From contig CALVWC010000003.1 in NCBI GenBank assembly GCA_944364445.1, positions 1 to 46,087 of the forward strand: 46,087 nucleotides of DNA, given 5' to 3'. Both the position numbers and the translations under genes were made by a program. The notes under the pieces were generated by a model that worked only from the letters and a program-made list of their open reading frames with translations, had not been told where the DNA came from and made no database searches. Shown piece by piece: positions 11,139 to 46,087 of the stretch; position 1 is the stretch's first letter, and every line of letters starts with the position of its first letter. This DNA comes from an uncultured Clostridia bacterium. Its GTDB lineage: Bacteria > Bacillota > Clostridia > Christensenellales > UBA1242.

Positions 11139-11230
11139 ATATCCATGAAGAGTGTGCGAGGGACAGCCCCTTTGACCACACAGCAACCTAGTTCTTGACC
11201 AAGGTGCTAATGGCTGAGTCGATGGGTAAG
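11139..11230 (+). ncRNA. SAM riboswitch, SAM-I/IV-type (no P4)
   Basis: P1 ccat/atgg, AAGAG, kink-turn P2 (tgtgcGAGGGAcagCCC..TGAccaca), P3 cagCAACC...GGTGCTAAtggctg; upstream of metK; sigmaA promoter GTGACA-17-TATAAT at 11106-11134. Confidence 0.88.
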
Positions 11231-11303: not shown

Positions 11304-12389
11304 ATGTTAAGAACAATTACAAGCGAAAGTGTGAACATTGGGCATCCAGACAAAACTTGCGACACCATTGCAGATGCCTTTTTGGATGAGGCGTTAAGGC
11401 AGGATAAGGACAGCCAAATGGCAGTGGAGTGTGCCATTAAAAATGATAAACTTTTCATTTATGGCGAGGCGACAACAAGGGCTAAGATTGATTATGACAA
11501 AATTGCAAAAGAAATTTTAAGAGATATTGGCTATCAAAACGATTTTAAGATAATTAAGGAGATAAGCAAGCAAAGCCCAGATATTGCACAGGCTGTGAAA
11601 AAGAAAAAATTGTGCGCTAATGACCAGGGGATGATGTTTGGATATGCCACAAATGAAACAAAAGAGTTTATGCCTCTGCCAATTTTGATTGCTCACAAAT
11701 TAATGAAAAAATACGACGACTTTAGGCGAATGGGCGATATGTTTTTTGCTGATGCAAAATGTCAGGTGAGTGTGGAGTATGACGATTGGAAGCCTATAAG
11801 AATTTCCACGGTGCTTATAAGCGTTTCTCACTCTGAAAAAATATCCAATGAAGATATTTGTAAGGAAATTTTGGAAAATGTTGTGCTTAATGTTTTGGCA
11901 GAATATGAAAGTTTAACGGATGACAATCTGAAAATCTTAATTAATCCAAGTGGCAGGTTTACCATTTGGGGAAGTTTCGGCGACAGCGGTTGCGTGGGCA
12001 GAAAAATTATTGTTGACACCTATGGCGGAGTTGGCCGAGTGGGTGGAGGTTGTTTCAGCTCCAAAAACGCCACAAAGGTGGATAGGTCAGGTGCATATTA
12101 CGCGCGATATGTTGTCAAAAATGTGGTGGCACACGGCTATGCGGATATTTGCGAAATTGAAGTGGCTTATGCGATTGGACTTGATGAGCCTGTGACTGTT
12201 AACATTGAAACCTTTGGAACAAACAAGGTAAAATTAGAGGAAATTGAAAATTATGTTAAAAAGAACTTTGATTTTTCGCTTTCCAACATCATTAAGGAAC
12301 TTGACCTGTTGAAACCAATCTATAAACAGACCGCTTGCTATGGGCATTTTGGCAGAGAGGAGTTTTCTTGGGAAAAAATTAAAAAATGA
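11304..12389 (+). CDS. metK: S-adenosylmethionine synthetase
   Basis: TSESVNIGHPDK.CD.IAD, DQGMMFGYA, GRKIIVDTYGG, KVDRSGAY, TACYGHFGR. Confidence 0.96.
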   Translation: MLRTITSESVNIGHPDKTCDTIADAFLDEALRQDKDSQMAVECAIKNDKLFIYGEATTRAKIDYDKIAKEILRDIGYQNDFKIIKEISKQSPDIAQAVKKKKLCANDQGMMFGYATNETKEFMPLPILIAHKLMKKYDDFRRMGDMFFADAKCQVSVEYDDWKPIRISTVLISVSHSEKISNEDICKEILENVVLNVLAEYESLTDDNLKILINPSGRFTIWGSFGDSGCVGRKIIVDTYGGVGRVGGGCFSSKNATKVDRSGAYYARYVVKNVVAHGYADICEIEVAYAIGLDEPVTVNIETFGTNKVKLEEIENYVKKNFDFSLSNIIKELDLLKPIYKQTACYGHFGREEFSWEKIKK

Positions 12390-35964: not shown

Positions 35965-35987
35965 AAGATGGGAAACCATCTTTTTTT
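35965..35987 (+). terminator. rnpB terminator
   Basis: AAGATGG-gaaa-CCATCTT + T tract. Confidence 0.8.
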
Positions 35988-36021
35988 GTTTAAAAATATT
36001 TTGTTGGGCAAAAATCATCTT

Positions 36022-37245
36022 ATGAGAAAGGAAGATGTATATAATTTTAAAACCACCATATTAAATCGCGTTAGGTTTCATGCACCGATATGTTTTGACT
36101 CTGAGATTGACAGGACAATTCTTTTTAACAATGGTGTAAATTTAAATTATCCTATTTTTGTTTATAGAAATACACTTTCAAAAGAGGTTTTAAAAGCGTT
36201 TTATGAGGCAAGTTTAGAGGCTGACTTTAATTTGTTAATACCTTTAACTAATGTTCAAAGTAAGCAGGAAAAGTTTTTGAAAAAAATTAATAATTGTGTG
36301 CTTTTTGGTGATAACGCACCTCTTTCTTTTATAACCATGATAAATAAACTCAACATTAATTATCCAGCAAGTTGCAACTATGATTTAACATATAAGGAAA
36401 AATTTTTTAAAGTTAATAATGAAATTTTAAACCCTGTTTATAAAGAGTTTTCCTTGCAAAGAGAAGTGGTTGTGGATGGCGTTAAAGTGGAGTATAAGGA
36501 ATTTCTTTTGAATGGAAATAATATTTATGTCAAACTCAAAAATAACGAAAAAAGAGAGAAAAAATTAAAAATTTCTTTAAATTTTCCGTTAAAAAGGGGA
36601 TATTTTCTCTTTAAACGATTAAATCGTTGTGTTAAAATTGAAAATTTGCAAAACGGAGAATTGATGTATTTTTCCTTTATTTGTCCTTGTGCGAAAATGA
36701 GTTTTTCGGCGGTTGATGGTTTGGAAAATTCTTCTTACTCCACCATTTATTTGGAATTTAACTTGACCATTAAACCTAATGAGAAAAAAAGTTTATTCTT
36801 TTTGATGTCGAATAAAAAATTCCCTCTTAAGACAGATAAAGAATTTGATGAGTTGTTTGAGATTGCTTTAAATAAAAGCAAAGAGATTTTTGATTTAAAA
36901 GTGAAAACTAAAGATGCTAAATTTGACCAATTTTTTAACAACACTTTACCTAAAAAAATTTGGCTTAATTGGAGTAATTTTTGCGAAGATGAAAGTTTAT
37001 TAAAAAAGTATGAAACACTTAGGAGGTTGTTTATCAAAGGTAAGGATAAAATTTGCTTTGTGCCATTTAAAGAAATTGGGCTTAAAGAACTTGGAATATT
37101 TAATGGCGAGTATTATAAAAAAATTTTAATAAGTTTTGGCGATGAAAGGTATTTGCAAGTTGGAAAGACAAAATTTTTTAATATATCAAATATAAATAAA
37201 AAATCACTTTCAAAACGAGATGCGATTTTTCTTTCATTCGCGTGA
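36022..37245 (+). CDS. Hypothetical Lys/Phe-rich protein, possibly a degenerate GH94-like sandwich domain
   Basis: Long ORF; LKVKTKDAKFDQFFNNTL resembles the GH94 linker (VkTPD..fD...N.WL); no catalytic barrel apparent. Confidence 0.6.
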   Translation: MRKEDVYNFKTTILNRVRFHAPICFDSEIDRTILFNNGVNLNYPIFVYRNTLSKEVLKAFYEASLEADFNLLIPLTNVQSKQEKFLKKINNCVLFGDNAPLSFITMINKLNINYPASCNYDLTYKEKFFKVNNEILNPVYKEFSLQREVVVDGVKVEYKEFLLNGNNIYVKLKNNEKREKKLKISLNFPLKRGYFLFKRLNRCVKIENLQNGELMYFSFICPCAKMSFSAVDGLENSSYSTIYLEFNLTIKPNEKKSLFFLMSNKKFPLKTDKEFDELFEIALNKSKEIFDLKVKTKDAKFDQFFNNTLPKKIWLNWSNFCEDESLLKKYETLRRLFIKGKDKICFVPFKEIGLKELGIFNGEYYKKILISFGDERYLQVGKTKFFNISNINKKSLSKRDAIFLSFA

Positions 37246-38808: not shown

Positions 38809-39768
38809 ATGTTTGGACGAAGAGCAGACGGAAAGAGAGTTAAAGATTTGATGATTATTGAAAAGGCTTTGCCTTACTTCATGCCGATGAGAATTGATGG
38901 CGTGAATTTGTATAAGCAACAGGTGAAATGCAAAACCATTGACGATTTCATCTTAAAAGAAAGGCAGGAAACTGGTGTGCATTTCACTTACACCGAAATT
39001 TTGATTGCAGCGTGCGTTAGGATGCTTTATGAAAGACCTAAGGCAAACAGGTTTATTATGAATTGTCAAATTTACCAAAGAAATGAAATCACAGTTTCTA
39101 TGAGTATTAAACCAAAACTTATTGATGATTGCGATGAGGTGACACTTAAGTTTCACTTCACAGGAAGAGAAAATATTTATGAAGTTAAAAAGATTGTGGA
39201 TGATGAAATAAAAAGAAATGTGCAGTCGGCGAATGAAGCGCAAGAAACCACAAAAGCAGCGAAATTTCTTGGAAAACTTCCTTATTGGATGTTTAAGGTT
39301 GCCATGAAGTTTATAAGGTTTGCTGATAGGTATGGTCTTCTTCCAAAATCGCTTATTGATGTCAGCCCATTCCACACAAGCATCTTTATAACCGATCTGA
39401 AAAGTATTAAACTTGATAAAGTTTATCATCATTTATATAACTTTGGAACGACCACAATTTTCGGAGCGCTTGGAAAGGTAAAGTATGTGCCAGTCAGCGA
39501 TAGAAATGGCGATATTCACACTGAAAAAGTGGTGGATATTGGTTTGACTTTGGATGAAAGAGTGGCTGATGGGTTGTATTATGCAAATTGCGTTAAACTT
39601 TTGCTTAAATATCTTGAAAACCCAGAATGCTTGAAGCAAAGTTTGAGTGAAGCAGAAGTTATTGATAAAGCGAAGAAAAAGCAAGAGAAAAAAGAAAAAC
39701 GCTTAGCCAAGAAAAAGGCGAAGCAAGAAAAGAAAGATAAAATTGTGAAAATAAATGAAGTTGCTTAA
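38809..39768 (+). CDS. Stand-alone 2-oxoacid dehydrogenase E2-like / CAT-fold acyltransferase domain protein
   Basis: MFGRRADG N-terminus, P..NRF, YHHLYNFGT, TLDERVADG.Y; no lipoyl domain. Confidence 0.75.
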   Translation: MFGRRADGKRVKDLMIIEKALPYFMPMRIDGVNLYKQQVKCKTIDDFILKERQETGVHFTYTEILIAACVRMLYERPKANRFIMNCQIYQRNEITVSMSIKPKLIDDCDEVTLKFHFTGRENIYEVKKIVDDEIKRNVQSANEAQETTKAAKFLGKLPYWMFKVAMKFIRFADRYGLLPKSLIDVSPFHTSIFITDLKSIKLDKVYHHLYNFGTTTIFGALGKVKYVPVSDRNGDIHTEKVVDIGLTLDERVADGLYYANCVKLLLKYLENPECLKQSLSEAEVIDKAKKKQEKKEKRLAKKKAKQEKKDKIVKINEVA

Positions 39769-39773
39769 TTTTG

Positions 39774-39797
39774 TGCGAGAATTTTCTCGCATTTTTT
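39774..39797 (+). terminator. Intrinsic terminator
   Basis: TGCGAGAA/TTCTCGCA + T tract. Confidence 0.75.
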
Positions 39798-39895
39798 ATT
39801 TAAAGAGATTTAGAATAACAAATTACAAGTTTAAATTTTAGAAAATTTGTAAATCAATAAAAAAATGTTTTTATTTCGCGAATATAAGTAAATAT

Positions 39896-40030
39896 TGTCG
39901 AAAAAGTTGTTAATGAAGTCATTTTGACAGCAATTTGACGGCAGAAATAAATCTAATTGTAAAATATTGTAAAATAGCAGAAAATTAGTTGGCATAAAAT
40001 TTGACTATGTCAATTTTATTTCATTATAAT
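39896..40030 (+). promoter_or_regulatory. Spo0A-box cluster, palindromic operator and sigmaA promoter of the RinA/ArpU-like gene
   Basis: TGTCGAA 39896-39902 (perfect); TTTGACA 39923-39929 and TTTGACG 39934-39940 (reverse near-matches); inverted repeat ATAAAATTTGAC-tat-GTCAATTTTAT over TTGACT(40001)-18-TATAAT(40025). Confidence 0.55.
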
Positions 40031-40057
40031 TTCTCATGTTTTGCAAAGGAGTATATT

Positions 40058-40585
40058 ATGAAAGAAAATTGTTGGACAAAAACATTGCTTGGAACTTACA
40101 GGTATTTGGAAAATATTGCGGGTGCCATTGACAAGATGGTTATGAAAACTGCACTTAATTCTTATCACTTCTGTCGCGGGGAAAGCAATAATGTTTATAA
40201 TATTTCTAATAAAATTATTGACCTTGCGGATAGAAAAATCACCTTGATTAACCTTAAAGTGATCATAGATAAAGTGCTTATGGAAATTCCTGAAAGCGAT
40301 GCAAAACTTTTGATTGAAAGGTATGTTGAAAATGTCAAATGTCGCGTTATGGCAGAAAATTCAAAAGTAAGCATTAGAACACTTTTTAGAAAATTAACTT
40401 GTGCGGAAAACAATTTCACAAAGAAACTTGTTGCCAATGGCTATACAGATGCGAGGTTAAGCGAACTTCTTAAAAAAGAAAAGTGGATTTTAAATTTTTA
40501 TGACCAAGTGGCAAATAAGGGTGAAGAAAATTTAAATATGCAAAAAGACCTTGCTTATCAAACTAAAATTTTTGGTCTTGTTTAA
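40058..40585 (+). CDS. RinA/ArpU-like (sigma region-4-type HTH) transcriptional regulator
   Basis: N-terminal helical region then IDKVL.EI...DAKLLIERY....K...MAE...VSIRTLFRKL..A...F, the typical C-terminal pattern of phage late activators; AAGGAG SD. Confidence 0.6.
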   Translation: MKENCWTKTLLGTYRYLENIAGAIDKMVMKTALNSYHFCRGESNNVYNISNKIIDLADRKITLINLKVIIDKVLMEIPESDAKLLIERYVENVKCRVMAENSKVSIRTLFRKLTCAENNFTKKLVANGYTDARLSELLKKEKWILNFYDQVANKGEENLNMQKDLAYQTKIFGLV

Positions 40586-41346
40586 TTTAAATCGCTGTCA
40601 TCAAACTCAAAATAGTCACCATGCTGGATTTTTCTTATTGCTTTTTTCTCTGTTTTCCTTTTTTGTTTTGTTGGTTTTTTCACAAGGAAAAAGAGGATGA
40701 AAATGCTGGGAATGGTTATTGCTATTATTAAAAGCACTTTTGTGCCAGTGGATAGGTTGGAAAATGAGGTTGAAGAGCCTTCTAGTGCCTCCTCGCTTAC
40801 TTCTTCAAAAGTTTCGTTGTTGATTGTTGTTTCGGGAGGGGTGGATACCACTTCAGAATAGATATAGCCTCTGACTATCTCACCATTAAGGTTGGTGCTG
40901 GCGTAATACCATGTGTTTCCGCGACTTGAAACTTCTTCACCTTCCATTTCGCCATAGAAATTGAAAACTGTGTCCTCTTCAACATCGGCAAGGCTTGTGC
41001 TTGACGAGTTTGGATTTTCATATAGCGAATATGCCACATAGTTTGTGAAAGTGGAGTTTAAGTAAGGTGAGTTTGGAGTGCCTCGCATTAAAGTGACATC
41101 TTCTTTTTTAACAAAGCCGATTAAATCTTTGTAGGTCACTTGATAAAATTCTCCCTCCACCGATATCACACTGACGAAATAGGAATAAGGCAGTTTGAAA
41201 AGTCCGCTTGCCGAACTTAAAGAGGAGTAAAAATACGCATCGCTATCTTTTACTTTTCCATATATATTATCTTCCGCACTTGCAAAATTTATCTCTACAA
41301 AGGGAAGAAAAAGAAGGGTGAATAAAATTAAAAATATTTTTTTCAT
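40582..41346 (-). CDS. Secreted, membrane-anchored protein with two SH3b-like domains
   Basis: Signal peptide (..FASA/E), V.VISVEGEFYQVTY..LIGFVKKEDV and TWYY.....GEIVRGYIYSE, C-terminal TM and basic tail. Confidence 0.7.
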   Translation of the reverse strand: MKKIFLILFTLLFLPFVEINFASAEDNIYGKVKDSDAYFYSSLSSASGLFKLPYSYFVSVISVEGEFYQVTYKDLIGFVKKEDVTLMRGTPNSPYLNSTFTNYVAYSLYENPNSSSTSLADVEEDTVFNFYGEMEGEEVSSRGNTWYYASTNLNGEIVRGYIYSEVVSTPPETTINNETFEEVSEEALEGSSTSFSNLSTGTKVLLIIAITIPSIFILFFLVKKPTKQKRKTEKKAIRKIQHGDYFEFDDSDLN

Positions 41347-41438
41347 AGTTTAATTTTAAATCTCATTAAAGGAATTTACGGAAGAGAAATATGTCTATAT
41401 TTTTATTTTAGTAGATTTTTTTGTAAAAAGGAGGAAGG

Positions 41439-42854
41439 TTGGATAATTTAGTTTTAAATATCTTAAAAATTGAAGAAGAAATCAAAAATCGCAAAAAATT
41501 GCCATATTTTCGCTATAATAAAGGAAAAAAAGTGCATAAAAAGCAAATTTTGTTTCATAAATGTCAAAAACGAAACCGCTGGGTGTTTGGAGGAAACCGC
41601 TCTGGTAAAACCGAATGCGGAGCAATGGAAGTGGTGTTTTTGGCTCTTGGCACTCATCCATATAAAAAGAATAAGCAAACGGAGGGTTGGGTGGTTTCGC
41701 TTTCAAGGCAAGTTCAACGCGACGTTGCACAAAGAAAAATTTTGGAATATCTTCCGCCATATTCCATTGAAAAAGTTGTTATGTTGTCTGGCGGGCAAGG
41801 AAGTGCAGAAAGCGGAATTATTGATTTTATTTTGGTGAAGAACGAACTTGGCTCAATAAGCAAAATTGGCTTTAAATCGTGCGACCAAGGACGAGAGAAA
41901 TTTCAGGGTGCAAGTTTAGATTATGTTTGGTTCGACGAAGAACCGCCTTATGACATATACCTTGAATGTCGTATGCGAGTTTTAGATAGGTGTGGGGAAA
42001 TTTTTGGCACGATGACGCCGTTAAAAGGGCTTACTTGGGTTTATAACACAATTTATTTAAATGAGCATGATGACGAGGAAGTCTGGTATGAGCAAATAGA
42101 GTGGGCGGATAACCCATTTTTATCGCAAGACGAAGTTGACAGCATGACAAAGAGTATGTCAAGTGAAGAACTTGAAGCAAGGCGATATGGGAAATTTATT
42201 GCAACAAGCGGGCTTGTCTATTCCGAGTTTGACGAAAATGTGCATGTGATTGAACCCTTTGACATTCCAAGTGAGTGGCAGGATAATATCTCCATTGACC
42301 CCGGACTTCACAATCCACTTTCCGCTCATTTTTACGCGGTCGATTTTGATGATAATGTTTATGTGGTGGCTGAACATTTTGAGGCGGAAAAGGATGTTTC
42401 CTATCATGCAAACAAAATTAAAGAAATTGCAGACAGGCTAAATTGGAAAAGAACCTCCTCTGGCAAACTTTCTGCGCTCATTGACCCTGCTGCCAGTCAG
42501 CGAACGCTTTCCAGTGAAAAAACTGTGGTCGAGCTTTTTAATGAAAATGGAATTTTGGTTAACACAAAAGTGAATAAGGATATGTTTTCAGGTATTGCAA
42601 CCGTTAAATCTTACTTAAAATCGGCAGACGGCAGGGTTAAACTTTATATTTTTAAAAATTGCGTCAATTTGATTCGAGAATTTAAGTCGTATTGGTGGGG
42701 TGATGGGGATAATCCAGTGAAGAAGGACGACCACGCTCTTGATGAACTTCGATATTATCTTATGACAAAACCAAGAAACACTTATAAACCGAAAAAGTCA
42801 GAAATACAAAAGGATAAGGAGCGATTAGCAAGAAAATTGAGATTTTTAAAGTAA
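41439..42854 (+). CDS. Phage terminase large subunit (TerL), orphan
   Basis: Q-motif HKKQ..FH, Walker A GGNRSGKT, FQG..LDYVWFDEE (Walker B), coupling motif TMTP, nuclease IDPG and DDHALDELRY; AAGGAGG SD before TTG. Confidence 0.92.
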   Translation: MDNLVLNILKIEEEIKNRKKLPYFRYNKGKKVHKKQILFHKCQKRNRWVFGGNRSGKTECGAMEVVFLALGTHPYKKNKQTEGWVVSLSRQVQRDVAQRKILEYLPPYSIEKVVMLSGGQGSAESGIIDFILVKNELGSISKIGFKSCDQGREKFQGASLDYVWFDEEPPYDIYLECRMRVLDRCGEIFGTMTPLKGLTWVYNTIYLNEHDDEEVWYEQIEWADNPFLSQDEVDSMTKSMSSEELEARRYGKFIATSGLVYSEFDENVHVIEPFDIPSEWQDNISIDPGLHNPLSAHFYAVDFDDNVYVVAEHFEAEKDVSYHANKIKEIADRLNWKRTSSGKLSALIDPAASQRTLSSEKTVVELFNENGILVNTKVNKDMFSGIATVKSYLKSADGRVKLYIFKNCVNLIREFKSYWWGDGDNPVKKDDHALDELRYYLMTKPRNTYKPKKSEIQKDKERLARKLRFLK

Positions 42855-42934
42855 TATTTTATTTTTTTAAATAATTTATAAATCTATTTGGAAAAATAAA
42901 GGTAAGTGTGGTAAAACTATATAGAGAGGGAAAA

Positions 42935-45391
42935 ATGAAAAAATCTATATCCATTTTTATCAGTTTACTTCTTTGCCTTCCACTTCTTTTATGTGGTGCT
43001 TTTTTTGTGTTTAACATTAACTTTGCTAAAGCAGAGGAAGTAGAGGGGAGAGTTATTTATTTAACTAGTGACAATTTTTTACAAGTAATAAATGAATATA
43101 TTAGAGTACCTGAGACTAATCCGATCTCTACTTACATTTTGCAAGAAGATATTGATGTCTCTAATGCGAAAAAAGATTTATATGATGATATAGAAGGTTT
43201 GTTTGGAACGGCAAGTCTCCCTTTTGCTGGAACATTTGATGGTAATGGTCACACAATTTCCAATTTGCATGTGAATTTGACGGGTGACTCTTATGCAAAT
43301 TCTTCCACCATATATGCAGGGCTTTTTGGGTATACAGATGGTGCAACAATCAAAAACTTACATATTTCAGGCACATACAATGTGGAAGTGCTTGAGTCAG
43401 ACGAACTTGTGATAGGCGGGCTTGTTGGACAGGCTAATAACACCACAATCGAAAATTGCTACATAACTTCTTCCATGTTTGTTGATGTTATTAAAGGATT
43501 TAATGAGGATAATGAGGCGGTTGCTGGTAATTTTAATATGTTGACATATGGTGGATTGGTTGGAGAAATGAAATATTCTACTTTAAAAAACTCAATTGTG
43601 CGTCCAACAAGTGCAGCTAATTTTCAGCTTTCGAATGTCTATCGAACAACTTCCGTTATTGGCGGTGTTGTTGGTAATCTTAATTCTTCAAGCGTTCGTT
43701 TTGTGCTTGGCGCTCAAAGTTTGAATGTCAATATTGATGAAAATTATAATGGAAGCACATATATTGGCGGAATTGCTGGATATATAAGCCAAGGCGAAGC
43801 ACAAATCATCAACTCAATTTATGACGGCGTTATAACGGTGGAGGACGGAAGCGGAAATGCTTCGATCGGTTATGTGGGAGGTTATATTTCCTCGCCAGCA
43901 CCAAGAGCCTATAACTTAAGTTATGATTATTATTATCGACCTCAAAACAGCACCTATACCGCGTTTGGCGATTATGGAAACTATGCGTTAAGAGATAATG
44001 AAGCATATATTATTTCTCAAAGCGTAAGAGCAAATTCCTCCAACTATTTTGAAAGCAAAGAATGGAATGACCTTTATGGCGATTGGGACTTTACAGACGA
44101 TTTCATAATCAGGAACAACGTTATTTATCTTCAAGCATTTGAAGACAATTTCACTCTTCGCACTGAAGTTGACGAGTTTATTTCCATAACAAAAGAAATT
44201 GAAAGTGGTCTTAGATATGGCGACACGGCTTCTTTTAGTTTTAAATTTTCTAACATCGAGGCTGGAGTTTCTGATGAAACATTTTCAAATTATTATGAAC
44301 TGACAAACATCACGCTTGACAAGCAAGACGGCAGTCAAACGGTGGTGACCTTTTTTAAGCAGGAAAATGATAATGATGAAACACATCTCGAGCCAAGAGT
44401 TAAAAGCGAATTTCCAAACATAACCGCAGAATATAACGAGGAAACTGAAGAATATACCATAACAATAAACGGCATAACTATGAATTATGCTGGCACCTAC
44501 TCGGTGAATATTGAACCAGTTCGTTTCACAGGCAATTTTGAGTATCGCCTGTTTGATGAAGAGGGGCAACTTGATAATGAAAGTGATGAAATGAAAACAG
44601 AATGTTATGTGTATTACACCAATGGCGAAAATAGGAATGACCCAACCATTCAAATCAAAGATATGGTTTATGGAAATCGTTATTCCATTTCCACATCCGC
44701 TCGAACAAACTCTCTATATTCATTCACTGGTTGGTGTATTGTGCAATATGATGACGAAGGAAATGAGATTTCCTCCGAGGAAATTACAGGGGCAACAAAC
44801 AGAGATTTATCTTTCACCTTTGGTCAAGGCGTTTTCACAGATAATTTCACAGTTTATGCAAGATATGACTATAATGCTTGCAATTTTAACTTCATTTTGG
44901 GCGACGGAATTGAGCAGATTGTGCTTTCAAATCGCAGTGAGCCTATCACCACCACCGACACAACTGTTCCACTTTTAAAACAATTAACAAGCATAACCAT
45001 GGATGTTTATGTTAAAGCAAATGCTAGTTTTGATGTTCAAAGATTTATGGATAGTGTGAACACCTTTGATTTGGAAAATCCAGAGGCGGGTTTTTGCGTA
45101 CTTGTGGATAATTATCCAATTACTTTGGAAGACGGCACCACACAATATCAATTTACTTTAAACCTGAACAATTTAAGCACCGATAATGAAGATAGTTTTA
45201 CATTAACTTTCAACACCGAGGAGGTTCACATAACAAATTGGACGCTTGTTTGGACTCTCGTCGGCTCAATCGGTGGAGGACTTCTTCTTATCGGCGGAAT
45301 AATTTTAATTGTTTTCTTGGTTAAACGCCGTGGCGGAAGAGGTGGCGGTGGCTCACTCAAAAAATCCTCCTATAAAAATATGTATTATTAA
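42935..45391 (+). CDS. Large surface protein with GLUG-type/beta-solenoid repeats and a C-terminal TM anchor
   Basis: Signal peptide, Y.L..DID, FAGTFDGNGHTISNL, GLFGY..GATIKNL, repeated IGGLVG/IGGIAG, C-terminal TM then KRRGGRGGGG. Confidence 0.8.
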   Translation: MKKSISIFISLLLCLPLLLCGAFFVFNINFAKAEEVEGRVIYLTSDNFLQVINEYIRVPETNPISTYILQEDIDVSNAKKDLYDDIEGLFGTASLPFAGTFDGNGHTISNLHVNLTGDSYANSSTIYAGLFGYTDGATIKNLHISGTYNVEVLESDELVIGGLVGQANNTTIENCYITSSMFVDVIKGFNEDNEAVAGNFNMLTYGGLVGEMKYSTLKNSIVRPTSAANFQLSNVYRTTSVIGGVVGNLNSSSVRFVLGAQSLNVNIDENYNGSTYIGGIAGYISQGEAQIINSIYDGVITVEDGSGNASIGYVGGYISSPAPRAYNLSYDYYYRPQNSTYTAFGDYGNYALRDNEAYIISQSVRANSSNYFESKEWNDLYGDWDFTDDFIIRNNVIYLQAFEDNFTLRTEVDEFISITKEIESGLRYGDTASFSFKFSNIEAGVSDETFSNYYELTNITLDKQDGSQTVVTFFKQENDNDETHLEPRVKSEFPNITAEYNEETEEYTITINGITMNYAGTYSVNIEPVRFTGNFEYRLFDEEGQLDNESDEMKTECYVYYTNGENRNDPTIQIKDMVYGNRYSISTSARTNSLYSFTGWCIVQYDDEGNEISSEEITGATNRDLSFTFGQGVFTDNFTVYARYDYNACNFNFILGDGIEQIVLSNRSEPITTTDTTVPLLKQLTSITMDVYVKANASFDVQRFMDSVNTFDLENPEAGFCVLVDNYPITLEDGTTQYQFTLNLNNLSTDNEDSFTLTFNTEEVHITNWTLVWTLVGSIGGGLLLIGGIILIVFLVKRRGGRGGGGSLKKSSYKNMYY

Positions 45392-45734: not shown

Positions 45735-46087
45735 TAACGTTAGAGTTTGATCCTGGCTCAGGACGAACGCTGGCGGCGTGCTTAAAACATGCAAGTCGAA
45801 CGAATAAATTGTTAGCACAAAGATGTCTAGAGAAAATTCCATTACACACATAAAACAATTTTTAATTTTGCGAGGGGAAGGGCTTAGCCCGGCGAGCACA
45901 AATTAAAAATCACACACGTGGAAGAGGATTGGGAAGAGAAACCGACGAAGTAGCGGTTAGGATATGAAAATATCCGTGTCCGCCTAAAGCGAAGTTGGTG
46001 TCTGTCCCAGATAGGCGTTTTTGTGCTGACAATTTGTTAGTGGCGGACGGGTGAGTAACGCGTGAACAATCTGGCTAACACAGGGGG
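45735..46087 (+). rRNA. rrs: 16S rRNA gene, 5' part (runs off the window)
   Basis: AGAGTTTGATCCTGGCTCAG at 45742, GACGAACGCTGGCGGCGTG, CATGCAAGTCGAACG, then AGTGGCGGACGGGTGAGTAACGCGTG. Confidence 0.97.
45803..46038 (+). other. Intervening sequence / large expansion in 16S helix 6 (V1)
   Basis: 236 nt between GTCGAACG and AGTGGCGGACGG, closed by a ~26-bp stem AATAAATTGTTAGCACAAAGATGTCTA / TAGGCGTTTTTGTGCTGACAATTTGTT. Confidence 0.9.

What the first reader, a model, noticed from the sequence alone, without database searches (positions are those of the whole stretch)
39896..42854. Orphan intact terminase plus RinA/ArpU-like activator under Spo0A boxes: candidate domesticated, sporulation-linked DNA-packaging (GTA-like) module
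Seen: a full-length TerL with all ATPase and nuclease motifs intact and a strong SD sits among host genes (rarA, acyltransferase, surface protein, rrn). No TerS, portal, capsid, integrase or att repeat is visible in 46 kb, and there is no obvious compositional break or decayed neighbour. A gene with a RinA/ArpU-like HTH lies about 0.85 kb upstream, separated only by an SH3b membrane protein that is divergent from terL. Established: RinA/ArpU proteins activate late/packaging operons beginning at the terminase in Firmicutes phages, and gene transfer agents are domesticated phage modules whose genes can be dispersed and host-regulated. Inference: these genes are part of a vertically inherited packaging system scattered over the chromosome and wired to the sporulation/stationary-phase regulon, making GTA-like particles or using TerL as a DNA motor or nuclease in development.
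Basis: partly seen in the sequence, partly recalled or inferred. Interest (0 to 1): 0.85.

Follow-up and report, generated by a model that had tools for sequence, protein, structure and literature searches.

The report
Domesticated, split phage head-packaging module
The "lone" terminase gene is one piece of a small, anciently inherited phage-derived gene set (packaging motor, capsid, short tail, lysis genes) that many gut Christensenellales keep under selection, most likely to make gene-transfer-agent-like particles.

Summary
The TerL gene (41439-42854) is real, intact and flanked by host genes. It is an orphan only because the contig ends. The same genome encodes a TerS-like protein, P22-like portal, scaffold, major capsid, adaptor, podovirus tail nozzle and two holins on contigs C39 and C7. 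These probably lie about 9 kb downstream, beyond a surface-protein gene, a 16S gene and six host-like genes.

The trio of sigma-region-4 regulator, SH3b membrane protein and TerL, together with the head operon, occurs in about half of the order's genomes (TerL 142 of 301, capsid 138 of 301). TerL identity tracks RarA identity (r 0.93). dN/dS is 0.02-0.14 in the four close pairs. The TerLs form one clade apart from phage-like contigs. No integrase or replication genes are present. Within this genus the two parts lie 11 to 104 kb apart.

This fits a domesticated, GTA-like element. It resembles the FpGTA reported in 2026, whose authors also saw GTA-like packaging in Christensenellaceae without naming genes.

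The Spo0A idea gains support. TGTCGAA is the most enriched 7-mer of its composition upstream of the regulator (23 of 61 loci), and Spo0A and SpoIVA are present.

Particle production, DNA content and regulation remain untested.

The parts
39896..39902 (+). Perfect Spo0A-box core TGTCGAA, about 100 nt upstream of the regulator's -35 element
   Evidence: One search gives the position; within the window the count is not above chance. A perfect box occurs within 300 nt upstream of the regulator in 23 of 61 loci and ranks first of 630 same-composition 7-mers. This box lies at -179, inside the forward cluster at -179 to -204. The core motif is as given in PMC3485338 (passages read).
39923..39976 (+). 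Two direct repeats TTTGAC(A/G)GCA (39923-32, 39934-43) and two ATTGTAAAAT (39957-66, 39967-76): candidate operator sites
   Evidence: Read. The same repeats are visible in the upstream regions of relatives printed. Function unknown.
39990..40030 (+). Regulator promoter: TGGCAT (39990-95), -35 TTGACT (40001-06), 18-nt spacer, -10 TATAAT (40025-30)
   Evidence: This is the best sigma-70-type match in 39700-43000, at 11 of 12 positions. The arrangement is conserved in the relatives printed. A terminator-like hairpin lies at 39773-39792 just upstream.
40058..40585 (+). Sigma-70 region-4 / Ltr-like regulator ('orf194'). The likely start is ATG 40058 (175 aa, AAGGAG at 40046-51); the TTG at 40001 listed as start lies inside the -35 element.
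   Evidence: A profile of 53 homologues hits sigma region 4 in PDB (SigF 8jzt, E 8e-4). The AF2 model has pLDDT 89.8. Foldseek matches SigmaE region 4 (2h27, TMt 0.70-0.72) and phage DUF1492 / sigma70_r4 / ECF-sigma proteins (TM up to 0.62 on the query, 0.75 on the target). No NCBIfam family and no Pfam family above cut-off were found. The gene is present with the SH3 gene in 59 of 69 loci that have enough upstream DNA.
40582..41346 (-). SH3b membrane protein: N-terminal signal-like segment, SH3_3 domain, C-terminal TM, basic tail ending in GDYFEFDD. It is divergent from terL and convergent with the regulator.
   Evidence: SH3_3 E 3.7e-7. A C-terminal TM is found in 73 of 73 homologues. The gene is conserved next to TerL in 62 of 69 loci. 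dN/dS is 0.05-0.08 in the two closest pairs. Role unknown.
41385..41400 (+). Conserved element upstream of terL (consensus aAa.AgATtTTTGTC), with TGTC at 41392-95, 47 nt before the start codon
   Evidence: TGTC lies at -75 to -25 in 50 of 89 loci, with a peak at -50 to -41. TTTGTC occurs at -60 to -35 in 21 of 78 loci against 2 of 78 in the -200 to -100 control. No sigma-70-type promoter scoring 9 of 12 or better lies on the + strand between the SH3 gene and terL.
41439..42854 (+). Large terminase subunit (ATPase plus nuclease), intact
   Evidence: Identity is 68-75% in 22 of 24 genus genomes. A match is found in 142 of 301 order genomes.
42908..45391 (+). 827-aa surface protein (signal peptide, weak GLUG motif, C-terminal TM). 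This host-type gene sits where more distant relatives have the head operon.
   Evidence: A homologue is inserted after TerL in 24 of 56 loci, while 23 of 56 loci have the portal and capsid genes directly after TerL.
45735..46087 (+). 5' part of 16S rRNA at the contig end: the assembly break that hides the rest of the module
   Evidence: Rfam SSU match, cut at the 3' side. The reverse complement of C39 starts with the 16S 3' end and runs on to the c7-c20-portal genes. C39 and C7 overlap by 77 exact bases.

Best explanation
terL is the first structural gene of a roughly 10-gene, phage-derived head, packaging, short-tail and lysis module. An ancestor within Christensenellales domesticated it from a P22/SU10-like podovirus, and it has been inherited vertically since.

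In more distant relatives the module is one block: regulator(+), SH3b membrane protein(-), TerL, a roughly 95-aa TerS-like protein, a roughly 70-aa ORF, portal, scaffold, major capsid, small ORF, adaptor, tail nozzle, holins. In this small-genome genus host genes have been inserted between TerL and the rest. Both parts stay intact.

Proposed working (inferred):
1. A signal at entry into stationary phase or sporulation, possibly Spo0A~P acting at the 0A boxes, switches on the sigma-region-4 / Ltr-like regulator from its sigma-A-type promoter.
2. The regulator activates the non-canonical terL promoter and the head-operon promoter.
3. Procapsids assemble.
4. TerL, with a TerS-like partner in which no DNA-binding domain was detected, fills the capsids with DNA, presumably host DNA.
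5. Adaptor and nozzle close the particle.
6. The holins help release it.

Shown here: gene content, conservation, selection, the split arrangement and motif enrichment. Inferred: regulation, particle formation, what is packaged, and transfer.
For: Gene content
- In L063, TerL is followed by a TerS-like ORF (phrog_309, E 4e-5), a P22-type portal (PF16510 E 6.7e-12; phrog_156 E 5e-27) and a major head protein (phrog_14242 E 1.9e-51).
- In the own genome a tblastn search places these genes on C39 and C7. The capsid gene matches phrog_14242 at E 3e-47. A BhlA holin (PF10960 E 5e-17) and a second holin (phrog_297 E 1e-11) come next, followed by polA and ruvX.
- The 502-aa ORF folds as a podovirus tail nozzle (model pLDDT 85.9; Foldseek 9nwi_Y E 2.9e-19, TM 0.69; SU10, P22 gp10 and T7 gp12 also match).
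- The head operon is intact in 11 of 11 same-genus genomes fetched.

Not a prophage
- In L074 the block of about 8.7 kb lies between gyrA / deacetylase / ssb and ispG.
- No recombinase lies on C3, C39 or C7.
- The genes inserted between the two parts are an ABC transporter, a permease, a glycosyltransferase and three ORFs with no family match.

Vertical inheritance
- TerL was found in 22 of 24 genus genomes. The two without it still have the capsid gene.
- In the order, TerL was found in 142 of 301 genomes and the capsid gene in 138 of 301. The counts are identical in 27 of the 30 families listed.
- Across 24 genomes TerL and RarA identities correlate at r 0.93. In other families TerL averages 60% against 55% for RarA.
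- The 32 module TerLs form one clade (SH-aLRT 84). Two phage-like IMG/VR contigs and other-order TerLs fall outside it.
- The best GenBank phage TerLs are 27-31% identical.

Selection
- dN/dS for L041/L044: TerL 0.02, regulator 0.04, SH3 0.05, portal 0.02, capsid 0.03.
- For L013/L015: 0.04, 0.07 and 0.08. For L060/L076: 0.11-0.30. For L038/L042: 0.07-0.09.

Dispersal
- TerL and the capsid gene lie 11 kb (G056), 39-55 kb (7 genomes) or 104 kb apart on opposite strands (G308). They are 3-4 kb apart in sister genera.

TerS-like partner
- ipSAE 0.62 against a best control of 0.00. This mark was reached by 58 of 80 solved complexes and 2 of 110 mismatched pairs.
- The runs share at least 52% of contacts and the partner's pLDDT is at least 69.
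- The C-terminal helix of c7 sits on TerL residues 1-18. TerS-TerL complexes are known, so this pass may reflect likeness to solved structures.

Regulator.

0A boxes. Spo0A and SpoIVA are each present in 5 of 5 genus genomes.

Literature: PMC12946183 (section 9 and passages read) reports GTA-like packaging in Christensenellaceae, 3 of 25 events, with no gene cluster named there.
Against: - No particles, packaged DNA or transcripts were observed.
- No endolysin, tail fibre or receptor-binding protein was identified. Two small ORFs (c20, c10) and the SH3b protein have no assigned role.
- The join from the window to C39 rests on the two halves of a 16S gene plus synteny with L019, L022 and L023. 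It does not rest on a spanning read.
- The module is not universal. It was not found in many families of the order, including SpoIVA-bearing ones. It is patchy in f4 (10 of 14), f26 (5 of 14) and f23 (4 of 6). In genus g8, 3 of 6 genomes have only an N-terminal TerL piece and no capsid match.
- The clade support for the TerL tree is 84, from a quick search, and is not starred.
- dS is saturated for nearly all pairs: only 27 of 3828 TerL pairs had dS below 1.5, so dN/dS rests on four close pairs.
- IMG/VR lists such loci as viral fragments.
- The TerS call is weak (E 4e-5).
- The 0A-box enrichment comes from related sequences (15 of 34 TerL-80% clusters). Binding was not tested.
Confidence: 0.6

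Rival explanations
1. The module makes phage-like particles or capsids whose benefit is not gene transfer. Possibilities are a PBSX-like killing or lysis agent, DNA release for biofilm or nutrition, or a capsid used as a compartment. The genes and the selection on them are as in the best explanation; only the purpose differs.
For: The data show only a conserved capsid, packaging, nozzle and holin set. No receptor-binding protein was identified. PMC12946183 (discussion passage) raises the same doubt for FpGTA.
Against: The ATPase and nuclease residues of TerL are invariant, and a TerS-like partner is kept, so DNA packaging itself seems to be selected. No contractile tail or other killing device was seen.
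Confidence: 0.2
2. It is a phage satellite (a capsid-forming PICI-like island) or a defective prophage remnant. It persists as a parasite, or by chance, and needs a helper phage.
For: The gene set (activator, terminases, capsid genes, holin) resembles what a 2026 preprint likens to capsid-forming satellites (10.64898/2026.07.08.737213, passage read). IMG/VR holds 38 such loci as viral fragments. The module was lost or decayed in some lineages.
Against: No integrase or replication gene lies near it. It sits in shared chromosomal contexts: the deacetylase and/or ssb gene clusters lie upstream in 10 loci, and they were annotated on L074. TerL identity tracks RarA identity. dN/dS is 0.02-0.14 in the four close pairs. 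The two parts lie 11-104 kb apart yet are both kept in genomes of 0.8-1.2 Mb.
Confidence: 0.1
3. TerL works on its own as a DNA motor or nuclease in sporulation or another cell process.
For: In this genus terL is transcriptionally separate from the head operon and lies next to a regulator with 0A boxes. Outside the order, one genus has a related TerL with no module-type portal or capsid gene beside it.
Against: TerL and the capsid gene have the same family distribution in 27 of the 30 families listed. Families f22, f25 and f28 have SpoIVA (12 of 14, 11 of 12, 13 of 14) but no module. The N-terminus of TerL is predicted to bind the TerS-like protein of the head operon.
Confidence: 0.04
4. It is an active temperate phage.
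For: It has phage structural genes. Phage-like IMG/VR contigs L148 and L150 carry a TerL that is 53-56% identical.
Against: The block is about 9-10 kb, with no replication, lysogeny or integration genes, and it is flanked by housekeeping genes. It is split by host genes in this genus.
Confidence: 0.02

Closest known systems
FpGTA of Faecalibacterium (Borodovich et al., Nat Commun 2026, PMC12946183; section 9 and passages read)
   Same: It is a roughly 10-kb, roughly ten-ORF chromosomal cluster in gut Clostridia with a TerS lacking an obvious DNA-binding domain, TerL, portal, scaffold, major capsid and short-tailed-phage proteins. It has no replication genes, is near-ubiquitous in its host clade, and keeps some genes at a second locus. 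The same paper saw GTA-like packaging in Christensenellaceae.
   Different: Sequence homology could not be tested because no FpGTA sequences were at hand. At E<=1e-40, TerL relatives occur in only 3 families outside the order among 400 class genomes, so the relationship is probably not close. Here the TerS-like gene follows TerL. A sigma-r4 regulator and an SH3b membrane protein are conserved upstream. 0A boxes are enriched. No endolysin or fibre locus was found. Supplementary tables that may list the Christensenellaceae events were closed.
RcGTA and other alphaproteobacterial GTAs (recalled; summarised in the introduction of PMC12946183)
   Same: These are domesticated phage head-tail genes, vertically inherited, spread over several loci, and controlled by a host master response regulator through a dedicated activator. 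The CtrA/GafA scheme is recalled, not from a call.
   Different: They have siphovirus-type tails and an HK97-type lineage, and they occur in another phylum. Here the particle would be podovirus-like, and the candidate master regulator is Spo0A.
PBSX of Bacillus subtilis (recalled; mentioned in PMC12946183)
   Same: It is a Firmicute defective phage that packages host DNA. Its late genes are driven by a small sigma-like factor (Xpf, recalled).
   Different: PBSX is a roughly 28-kb contiguous myovirus-like element, is SOS-induced, and acts as a killing particle.
Ltr late activators: RinA/ArpU, LtrA (sigma70_r4), LtrB (DUF1492) (PMC3753634; abstract and passages read)
   Same: They are small proteins encoded just upstream of the terminase and late operon. 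They have a region-4-like HTH and activate a non-canonical promoter before the packaging genes.
   Different: No sequence model of RinA or ArpU matches the regulator here. The likeness is by fold and by a profile hit to sigma region 4. Here the gene is host-resident, has its own sigma-A-type promoter and carries 0A boxes.
Capsid-forming PICIs (recalled; cited in 10.64898/2026.07.08.737213)
   Same: They are a compact set of terminase, portal and capsid genes without a full tail.
   Different: cf-PICIs carry an integrase and replication genes, are mobile, and use helper-phage tails. None of these features was seen here.

Membership tests
Large terminase (Pfam Terminase_6N + Terminase_6C) | ATPase and RNaseH-like nuclease domains score above the curated cut-offs | tested here: met
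   68.4 bits against a cut-off of 22, and 24.5 bits against 22.6. phrog_2 E 2e-32. PDB TerL 5oe8 E 6e-10.
Large terminase (Pfam Terminase_6N + Terminase_6C) | Walker A, Walker B and nuclease acidic residues are kept | tested here: met
   They are invariant in 30 of 30 aligned sequences. The assignment of residues to motifs is recalled.
Gene transfer agent | Phage-derived packaging, capsid and tail genes in the host chromosome | tested here: met
Gene transfer agent | No replication, integration or lysogeny genes, so the element cannot propagate itself | tested here: met
   Flanks of L063 and L074, own contigs. Only these loci were annotated.
Gene transfer agent | Vertical inheritance under purifying selection | tested here: met
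   No genome tree was built.
Gene transfer agent | Genes spread over more than one locus | tested here: met
   TerL and the capsid gene lie 11-104 kb apart in 9 genus genomes. In the own genome they are on different contigs.
Gene transfer agent | Particles carry random host DNA of a fixed, small size | not testable with these tools
   This needs VLP long-read data. PMC12946183 reports such events in Christensenellaceae, but they were not linked to these genes.
Gene transfer agent | Delivery of DNA to recipient cells | not testable with these tools
   No receptor-binding protein was identified.
FpGTA | Sequence homology of TerL, portal and capsid to the FpGTA I proteins | not tested
   No FpGTA sequence was available in any tool used.
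FpGTA | Cluster make-up: TerS, TerL, portal, scaffold, capsid, podovirus-type proteins | tested here: inconclusive
   The parts are the same, but the TerS-like gene lies after TerL and extra upstream genes are conserved.
RinA / ArpU families | Match to the family sequence models | tested here: not met
   No NCBIfam family matched. In Pfam only Phage_antitermQ matched, at E 0.008 and below its cut-off.
Ltr superfamily (sigma70_r4 / DUF1492 type) | Small protein with a region-4-like HTH, encoded upstream of the terminase | tested here: met
   Position.
Ltr superfamily (sigma70_r4 / DUF1492 type) | Binds upstream of the packaging genes and activates them | not testable with these tools
   Only a conserved upstream element was found.
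Spo0A regulon | Spo0A is encoded and a 0A box lies upstream of the gene | tested here: met
   Spo0A scores above its cut-off in 5 of 5 genus genomes. The box is at 39896. Boxes occur in 23 of 61 loci and rank first of 630 control 7-mers.
Spo0A regulon | Spo0A binds and changes transcription | not testable with these tools
   This needs an EMSA or a reporter assay.
Phage satellite (cf-PICI) | Integrase, att sites, replication module, patchy distribution | tested here: not met
   att repeats were not searched for.

The most novel reading that the evidence does not exclude
This would be a developmentally timed GTA. Spo0A~P at entry into sporulation switches on the Ltr-like activator. Particles filled with chromosomal DNA are then made in cells that are about to lyse anyway, such as mother cells. 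Gene exchange would cost no extra cell deaths. That would explain why spore-formers with genomes of about 0.9 Mb keep all ten genes even after the cluster was broken up.
Probability: 0.15. Interest if true: 0.85.

Novelty: new member of a known kind. Interest (0 to 1): 0.7.

Why it matters
GTA-like elements of gut Clostridia were first described in 2026. The same study saw GTA-like packaging in Christensenellaceae but named no genes for it.

This locus gives a concrete, testable candidate gene set for a whole order of common gut bacteria. It shows that the set is old, selected, and kept even in genomes of about 0.9 Mb. It also points to a regulatory route (0A boxes, then a sigma-r4 activator, then the terL and head promoters) that can be tested by EMSA and reporter assays.

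There is also a practical warning. Virus-prediction pipelines file these loci as viral fragments, and a contig break can make a terminase look orphan.

Tried and rejected
- Own-genome searches with Pfam Phage_portal, SPP1_portal and Phage_capsid found nothing, because the module's portal and capsid genes belong to other families.
- PF17236 (SU10_MCP) was suggested by the ESM Atlas search. It matched 9 of 400 class genomes and none in the own genome or order, so the SU10 link of the capsid rests on the Atlas hint alone.
- The NCBIfam PBSX terminase model scored 29.7 bits against a cut-off of 105.
- Literature: 'terminase, domesticated, sporulation, conserved' gave nothing specific. 'gene transfer agent' plus 'Christensenellales' gave PMC12946183. 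A four-term search added no further relevant paper. I found no paper describing this cluster in those searches.
- Expression: the look-up of sequencing runs gave chicken-gut runs. Read laying on X17-X20 used Logan contigs only. X17 and X18 are probably DNA. The metatranscriptome contigs of X19 and X20 cover bits of the SH3 gene and terL at about 90-99% likeness. They cannot show transcription, so there is no conclusion on expression.
- dN/dS across all pairs was abandoned because dS is saturated.
- A sigma-54 reading of TGGCAC-N5-TTGAA upstream of c7 was dropped. The -12 GC is missing, and TTGAAT with TAAAAT-like hexamers fits a sigma-A promoter.
- Whether the TGTC element before terL is a weak 0A box or the activator's site is left open.
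- TerLs of other orders (f96, f68) were checked for the module, and only TerL is shared.
It was re-sent with that field added.

Full report
**What is in the window**

The window is contig C3 of a 967-kb, 53-contig genome that is 87% complete. Record titles of close relatives name uncultured Clostridia, Christensenellaceae, 'Christensenella sp.' and Candidatus Borkfalkia. NCBI places Borkfalkia in Christensenellales. Near-identical DNA is held in chicken-gut metagenome runs.

- At 41439-42854 lies a 471-aa TerL. Its ATPase and nuclease residues are invariant in 30 of 30 aligned relatives.
- Upstream lie a 254-aa SH3b membrane protein on the other strand and a regulator ORF. The regulator's likely start is ATG 40058, because the listed TTG at 40001 is the -35 hexamer of its own promoter.
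- The other neighbours are rarA, an acyltransferase, an 827-aa surface protein and the first 353 nt of 16S rRNA at the contig end.
- Base composition is flat across the region.

**TerL is not an orphan**

I fetched 80 related genome loci and clustered their ORFs. In more distant relatives TerL is followed directly by a conserved block. Annotated on L063, the block holds:
- a roughly 100-aa ORF with a weak TerS match (phrog_309, E 4e-5);
- a roughly 70-aa ORF;
- a P22-type portal (PF16510 E 6.7e-12; phrog_156 E 5e-27);
- a scaffold-sized ORF;
- a major head protein (phrog_14242 E 1.9e-51);
- a small ORF;
- an ORF with a weak SU10-adaptor match;
- a roughly 490-aa ORF.

A tblastn search of the own genome places these genes on C39 and C7.
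- The two contigs overlap by 77 exact bases across the portal gene.
- The reverse complement of C39 begins with the 3' end of 16S, while the window ends in the 5' end of 16S.
- The probable order is therefore: regulator, SH3(-), TerL, surface protein, 16S, six host-like genes, TerS-like c7, c20, portal, scaffold, capsid, c10, adaptor-like c8, c9, BhlA holin, second holin, ORF100, polA, ruvX.
- The six host-like genes include an ABC ATPase, a permease and a glycosyltransferase.
- This order matches L019, L022 and L023 apart from the 16S gene and two of the six host-like genes, but no read spans the join.
- c9 models well (pLDDT 85.9) and matches podovirus tail nozzles (Pa223 tail 9nwi_Y E 2.9e-19, TM 0.69; also VP1, GP4, SU10, P22 gp10, T7 gp12).

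**It is not a prophage**

In L074 the whole block, from the regulator to the last unassigned ORF, spans about 8.7 kb. It lies between gyrA, a deacetylase and ssb on one side and ispG on the other. No tyrosine recombinase lies on C3, C39 or C7; the six matches in the genome are elsewhere.

**Distribution and inheritance**

- TerL is found in 22 of 24 same-genus genomes at 68-75% identity. The two without it still have an intact capsid gene.
- In a sample of 301 genomes of the order, TerL is found in 142 and the capsid gene in 138. The counts are equal in 27 of the 30 families listed.
- Many families have none, for example f5, f9, f22, f27 and f28, each 0 of 14. Some are patchy (f4 10 of 14, f26 5 of 14). 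In genus g8 three of six genomes have only a TerL fragment and no capsid match.
- In 400 genomes of the class, 24 match at E<=1e-40. Eleven of these lie outside the order, in three families. In the four loci I fetched, only TerL is shared there, not the portal or capsid.
- Across 24 genomes the identity of TerL to the window's copy correlates with that of RarA (Pearson 0.93). Between families TerL is the better conserved of the two (mean 60% against 55%).
- In a TerL tree rooted on two GenBank podovirus TerLs, the 32 module TerLs form one group (SH-aLRT 84, quick search). Two phage-like IMG/VR contigs and the other-order TerLs lie outside it.
- The best GenBank phage TerLs are 27-31% identical.
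- Of 40 IMG/VR loci, 38 are this same module, mostly on short contigs. L148 and L150 (53-56% identical) look like real phages with another portal.

**Selection**

Synonymous sites are saturated for nearly all pairs: 27 of 3828 TerL pairs had dS between 0.05 and 1.5. In the four close pairs dN/dS is low for every module gene:
- L041/L044: TerL 0.02, regulator 0.04, SH3 0.05, portal 0.02, capsid 0.03.
- L013/L015: 0.04, 0.07 and 0.08.
- L060/L076: 0.11-0.30.
- L038/L042: 0.07-0.09.

**Split architecture**

Of 56 loci with at least 6 kb downstream of TerL:
- 23 have the portal and capsid genes directly after TerL;
- 24 have a homologue of the surface-protein gene inserted there;
- 9 have other genes.

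Within the genus, TerL and the capsid gene lie 11 kb apart (G056), 39-55 kb apart (seven genomes) or 104 kb apart on opposite strands (G308). In two sister genera they are 3-4 kb apart. The head operon itself is intact in 11 of 11 genus genomes fetched.

A set of phage genes that has been pulled apart yet kept whole, in genomes of 0.8-1.2 Mb, is what a domesticated, GTA-like element looks like. It is not what a decaying prophage or a mobile satellite looks like.

**The TerS-like protein**

c7 has a conserved core (ALG...E.VEEY...KKKVTKK..PPD) and a C-terminal helix. Its L063 homologue has no Pfam match. Its PHROG match covers only profile positions 197-242 of 319.

The complex test supports binding to TerL:
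- ipSAE is 0.62 against a best control of 0.00. This mark was reached by 58 of 80 solved complexes and 2 of 110 mismatched pairs.
- The runs share at least 52% of contacts, and the partner's pLDDT is at least 69.
- c7 residues 62-88 sit on TerL residues 1-18, 108-109 and 134-138.
- TerS-TerL pairs are known, so this pass may reflect likeness to solved structures.

A small TerS without a detected DNA-binding domain parallels what is reported for FpGTA (PMC12946183).

**The regulator**

- A profile of 53 homologues hits sigma region 4 in PDB (SigF 8jzt, E 8e-4).
- The model (pLDDT 89.8) overlays SigmaE region 4 (2h27, TMt 0.70-0.72).
- Among viral models it overlays DUF1492, sigma70_r4 and ECF-sigma proteins (TM up to 0.62 on the query, 0.75 on the target; E from 1.7e-3).
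- These are two of the four Ltr families that activate the terminase and late operon in Gram-positive phages (PMC3753634, abstract and passages).
- No RinA or ArpU model matches.

So 'works like RinA/ArpU' is plausible, while 'is a RinA/ArpU' is not shown.

**Promoters and 0A boxes**

- The regulator has a near-consensus promoter, TTGACT-18-TATAAT. It is preceded by TGGCAT, two ATTGTAAAAT repeats and two TTTGAC(A/G)GCA repeats.
- The window holds one perfect 0A box in this region, which on its own is no more than chance.
- Across relatives, however, TGTCGAA or its complement lies within 300 nt upstream of the regulator in 23 of 61 loci (28 boxes).
- It is the commonest of all 630 7-mers of the same composition. 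The next is an overlapping word at 12, and the median is 0.
- Mononucleotide shuffles gave a mean of 1.3 and a maximum of 4 loci with a box.
- The boxes occur in 15 of 34 TerL-80% clusters.
- terL has no sigma-70-type promoter. It has a conserved element ending in TTTGTC about 47 nt before the start codon. In 12 of 78 loci this element reads TGTC[GA]AA.
- A related TG(G/T)CAY word precedes the -35-like hexamer of the head operon in the genus. Which protein reads these words is unknown.

**Sporulation**

Spo0A and SpoIVA score above their curated cut-offs in 5 of 5 genus genomes. In the order, SpoIVA is found in 253 of 301 genomes. In the families listed, those with the module also have SpoIVA in all or nearly all of their genomes. 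Families f22, f25 and f28 have SpoIVA without the module. The module is therefore not needed for sporulation, but a Spo0A input to it remains possible.

**Comparison with what is known**

The nearest described thing is FpGTA (PMC12946183, section 9 read).
- It is a 10.5-kb, ten-ORF operon holding a TerS without an obvious DNA-binding domain, TerL, portal, scaffold, capsid and podovirus-type proteins, with a second locus elsewhere.
- It makes 40-nm particles carrying about 9 kb of host DNA.
- That paper also counted 3 of 25 GTA-like packaging events in Christensenellaceae (HGM11616, QANA01) without naming genes for them.
- A 2026 preprint reports further candidate clusters in other Clostridia.
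- I could not compare sequences with FpGTA, and its supplementary tables were closed.

**Verdict**

The GTA-like, vertically inherited, scattered-module reading is well supported at the level of genes and evolution. Particle production, cargo, transfer and Spo0A control are inferred. I rate it a new member of a recently recognised kind, with a possibly new regulatory link.

Noticed in passing
G000:C4:44107-44793 (Spo0A); G000:C5:8861-10336 (SpoIVA): Genomes of only 0.8-1.2 Mb in this genus carry Spo0A and SpoIVA above the curated cut-offs (5 of 5 each). They may be endospore formers with unusually small genomes.
   Followed up: partly
G000:C20:8657-9040(-), G000:C15:15571-15915(+); G308:C2:110-134 kb: Each genus genome holds two to four extra ORFs of about 130-180 aa that match only the C-terminal DNA-binding part of Spo0A. 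One lies 2 kb from a tyrosine recombinase gene on C15. They could also read 0A boxes.
   Followed up: no
L156, L158, L159 (another family of the class, genus code g227): A TerL that is 54-57% identical occurs in several genomes of one genus outside the order, with no module-type portal or capsid gene beside it in the three of its loci fetched (L156, L158, L159). This is a second conserved TerL of unknown context.
   Followed up: partly
window 45735-46087 and start of the reverse complement of G000:C39: The 16S 3' end on C39 runs straight into protein-coding genes rather than a spacer and 23S. The 16S gene therefore seems unlinked from 23S here.
   Followed up: no
G153, G198, G284 (genus code g8): Three of six genomes have only an N-terminal TerL piece of about 275 aa and no capsid match, while two others keep both genes. 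The module appears to be decaying in that lineage.
   Followed up: no
G033:C1 (0.99 Mb and 2.22 Mb); G209:C2:8035-10370: One genome has two TerL-plus-capsid pairs. Another has two capsid genes in tandem, as do several loci such as L061, L062 and L067.
   Followed up: no
window 42908-45391; L063:3716-6271(-); L074:3794-6289(-): Large surface proteins of about 800-850 aa sit right beside the module in many genomes, upstream or inserted after TerL. Here the protein has a weak GLUG motif; in L063 it has SH3_3 plus a weak, sub-threshold NHL match. Whether this is coincidence or a functional link, for example a receptor, is unknown.
   Followed up: no
window 35968-37245: A 425-aa ORF directly after the RNase P RNA gene has no Pfam or NCBIfam match. 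It is conserved at 45-52% identity in four relatives.
   Followed up: no
window 11140-11228: A SAM riboswitch lies upstream of the ORF at 11304-12389.
   Followed up: no
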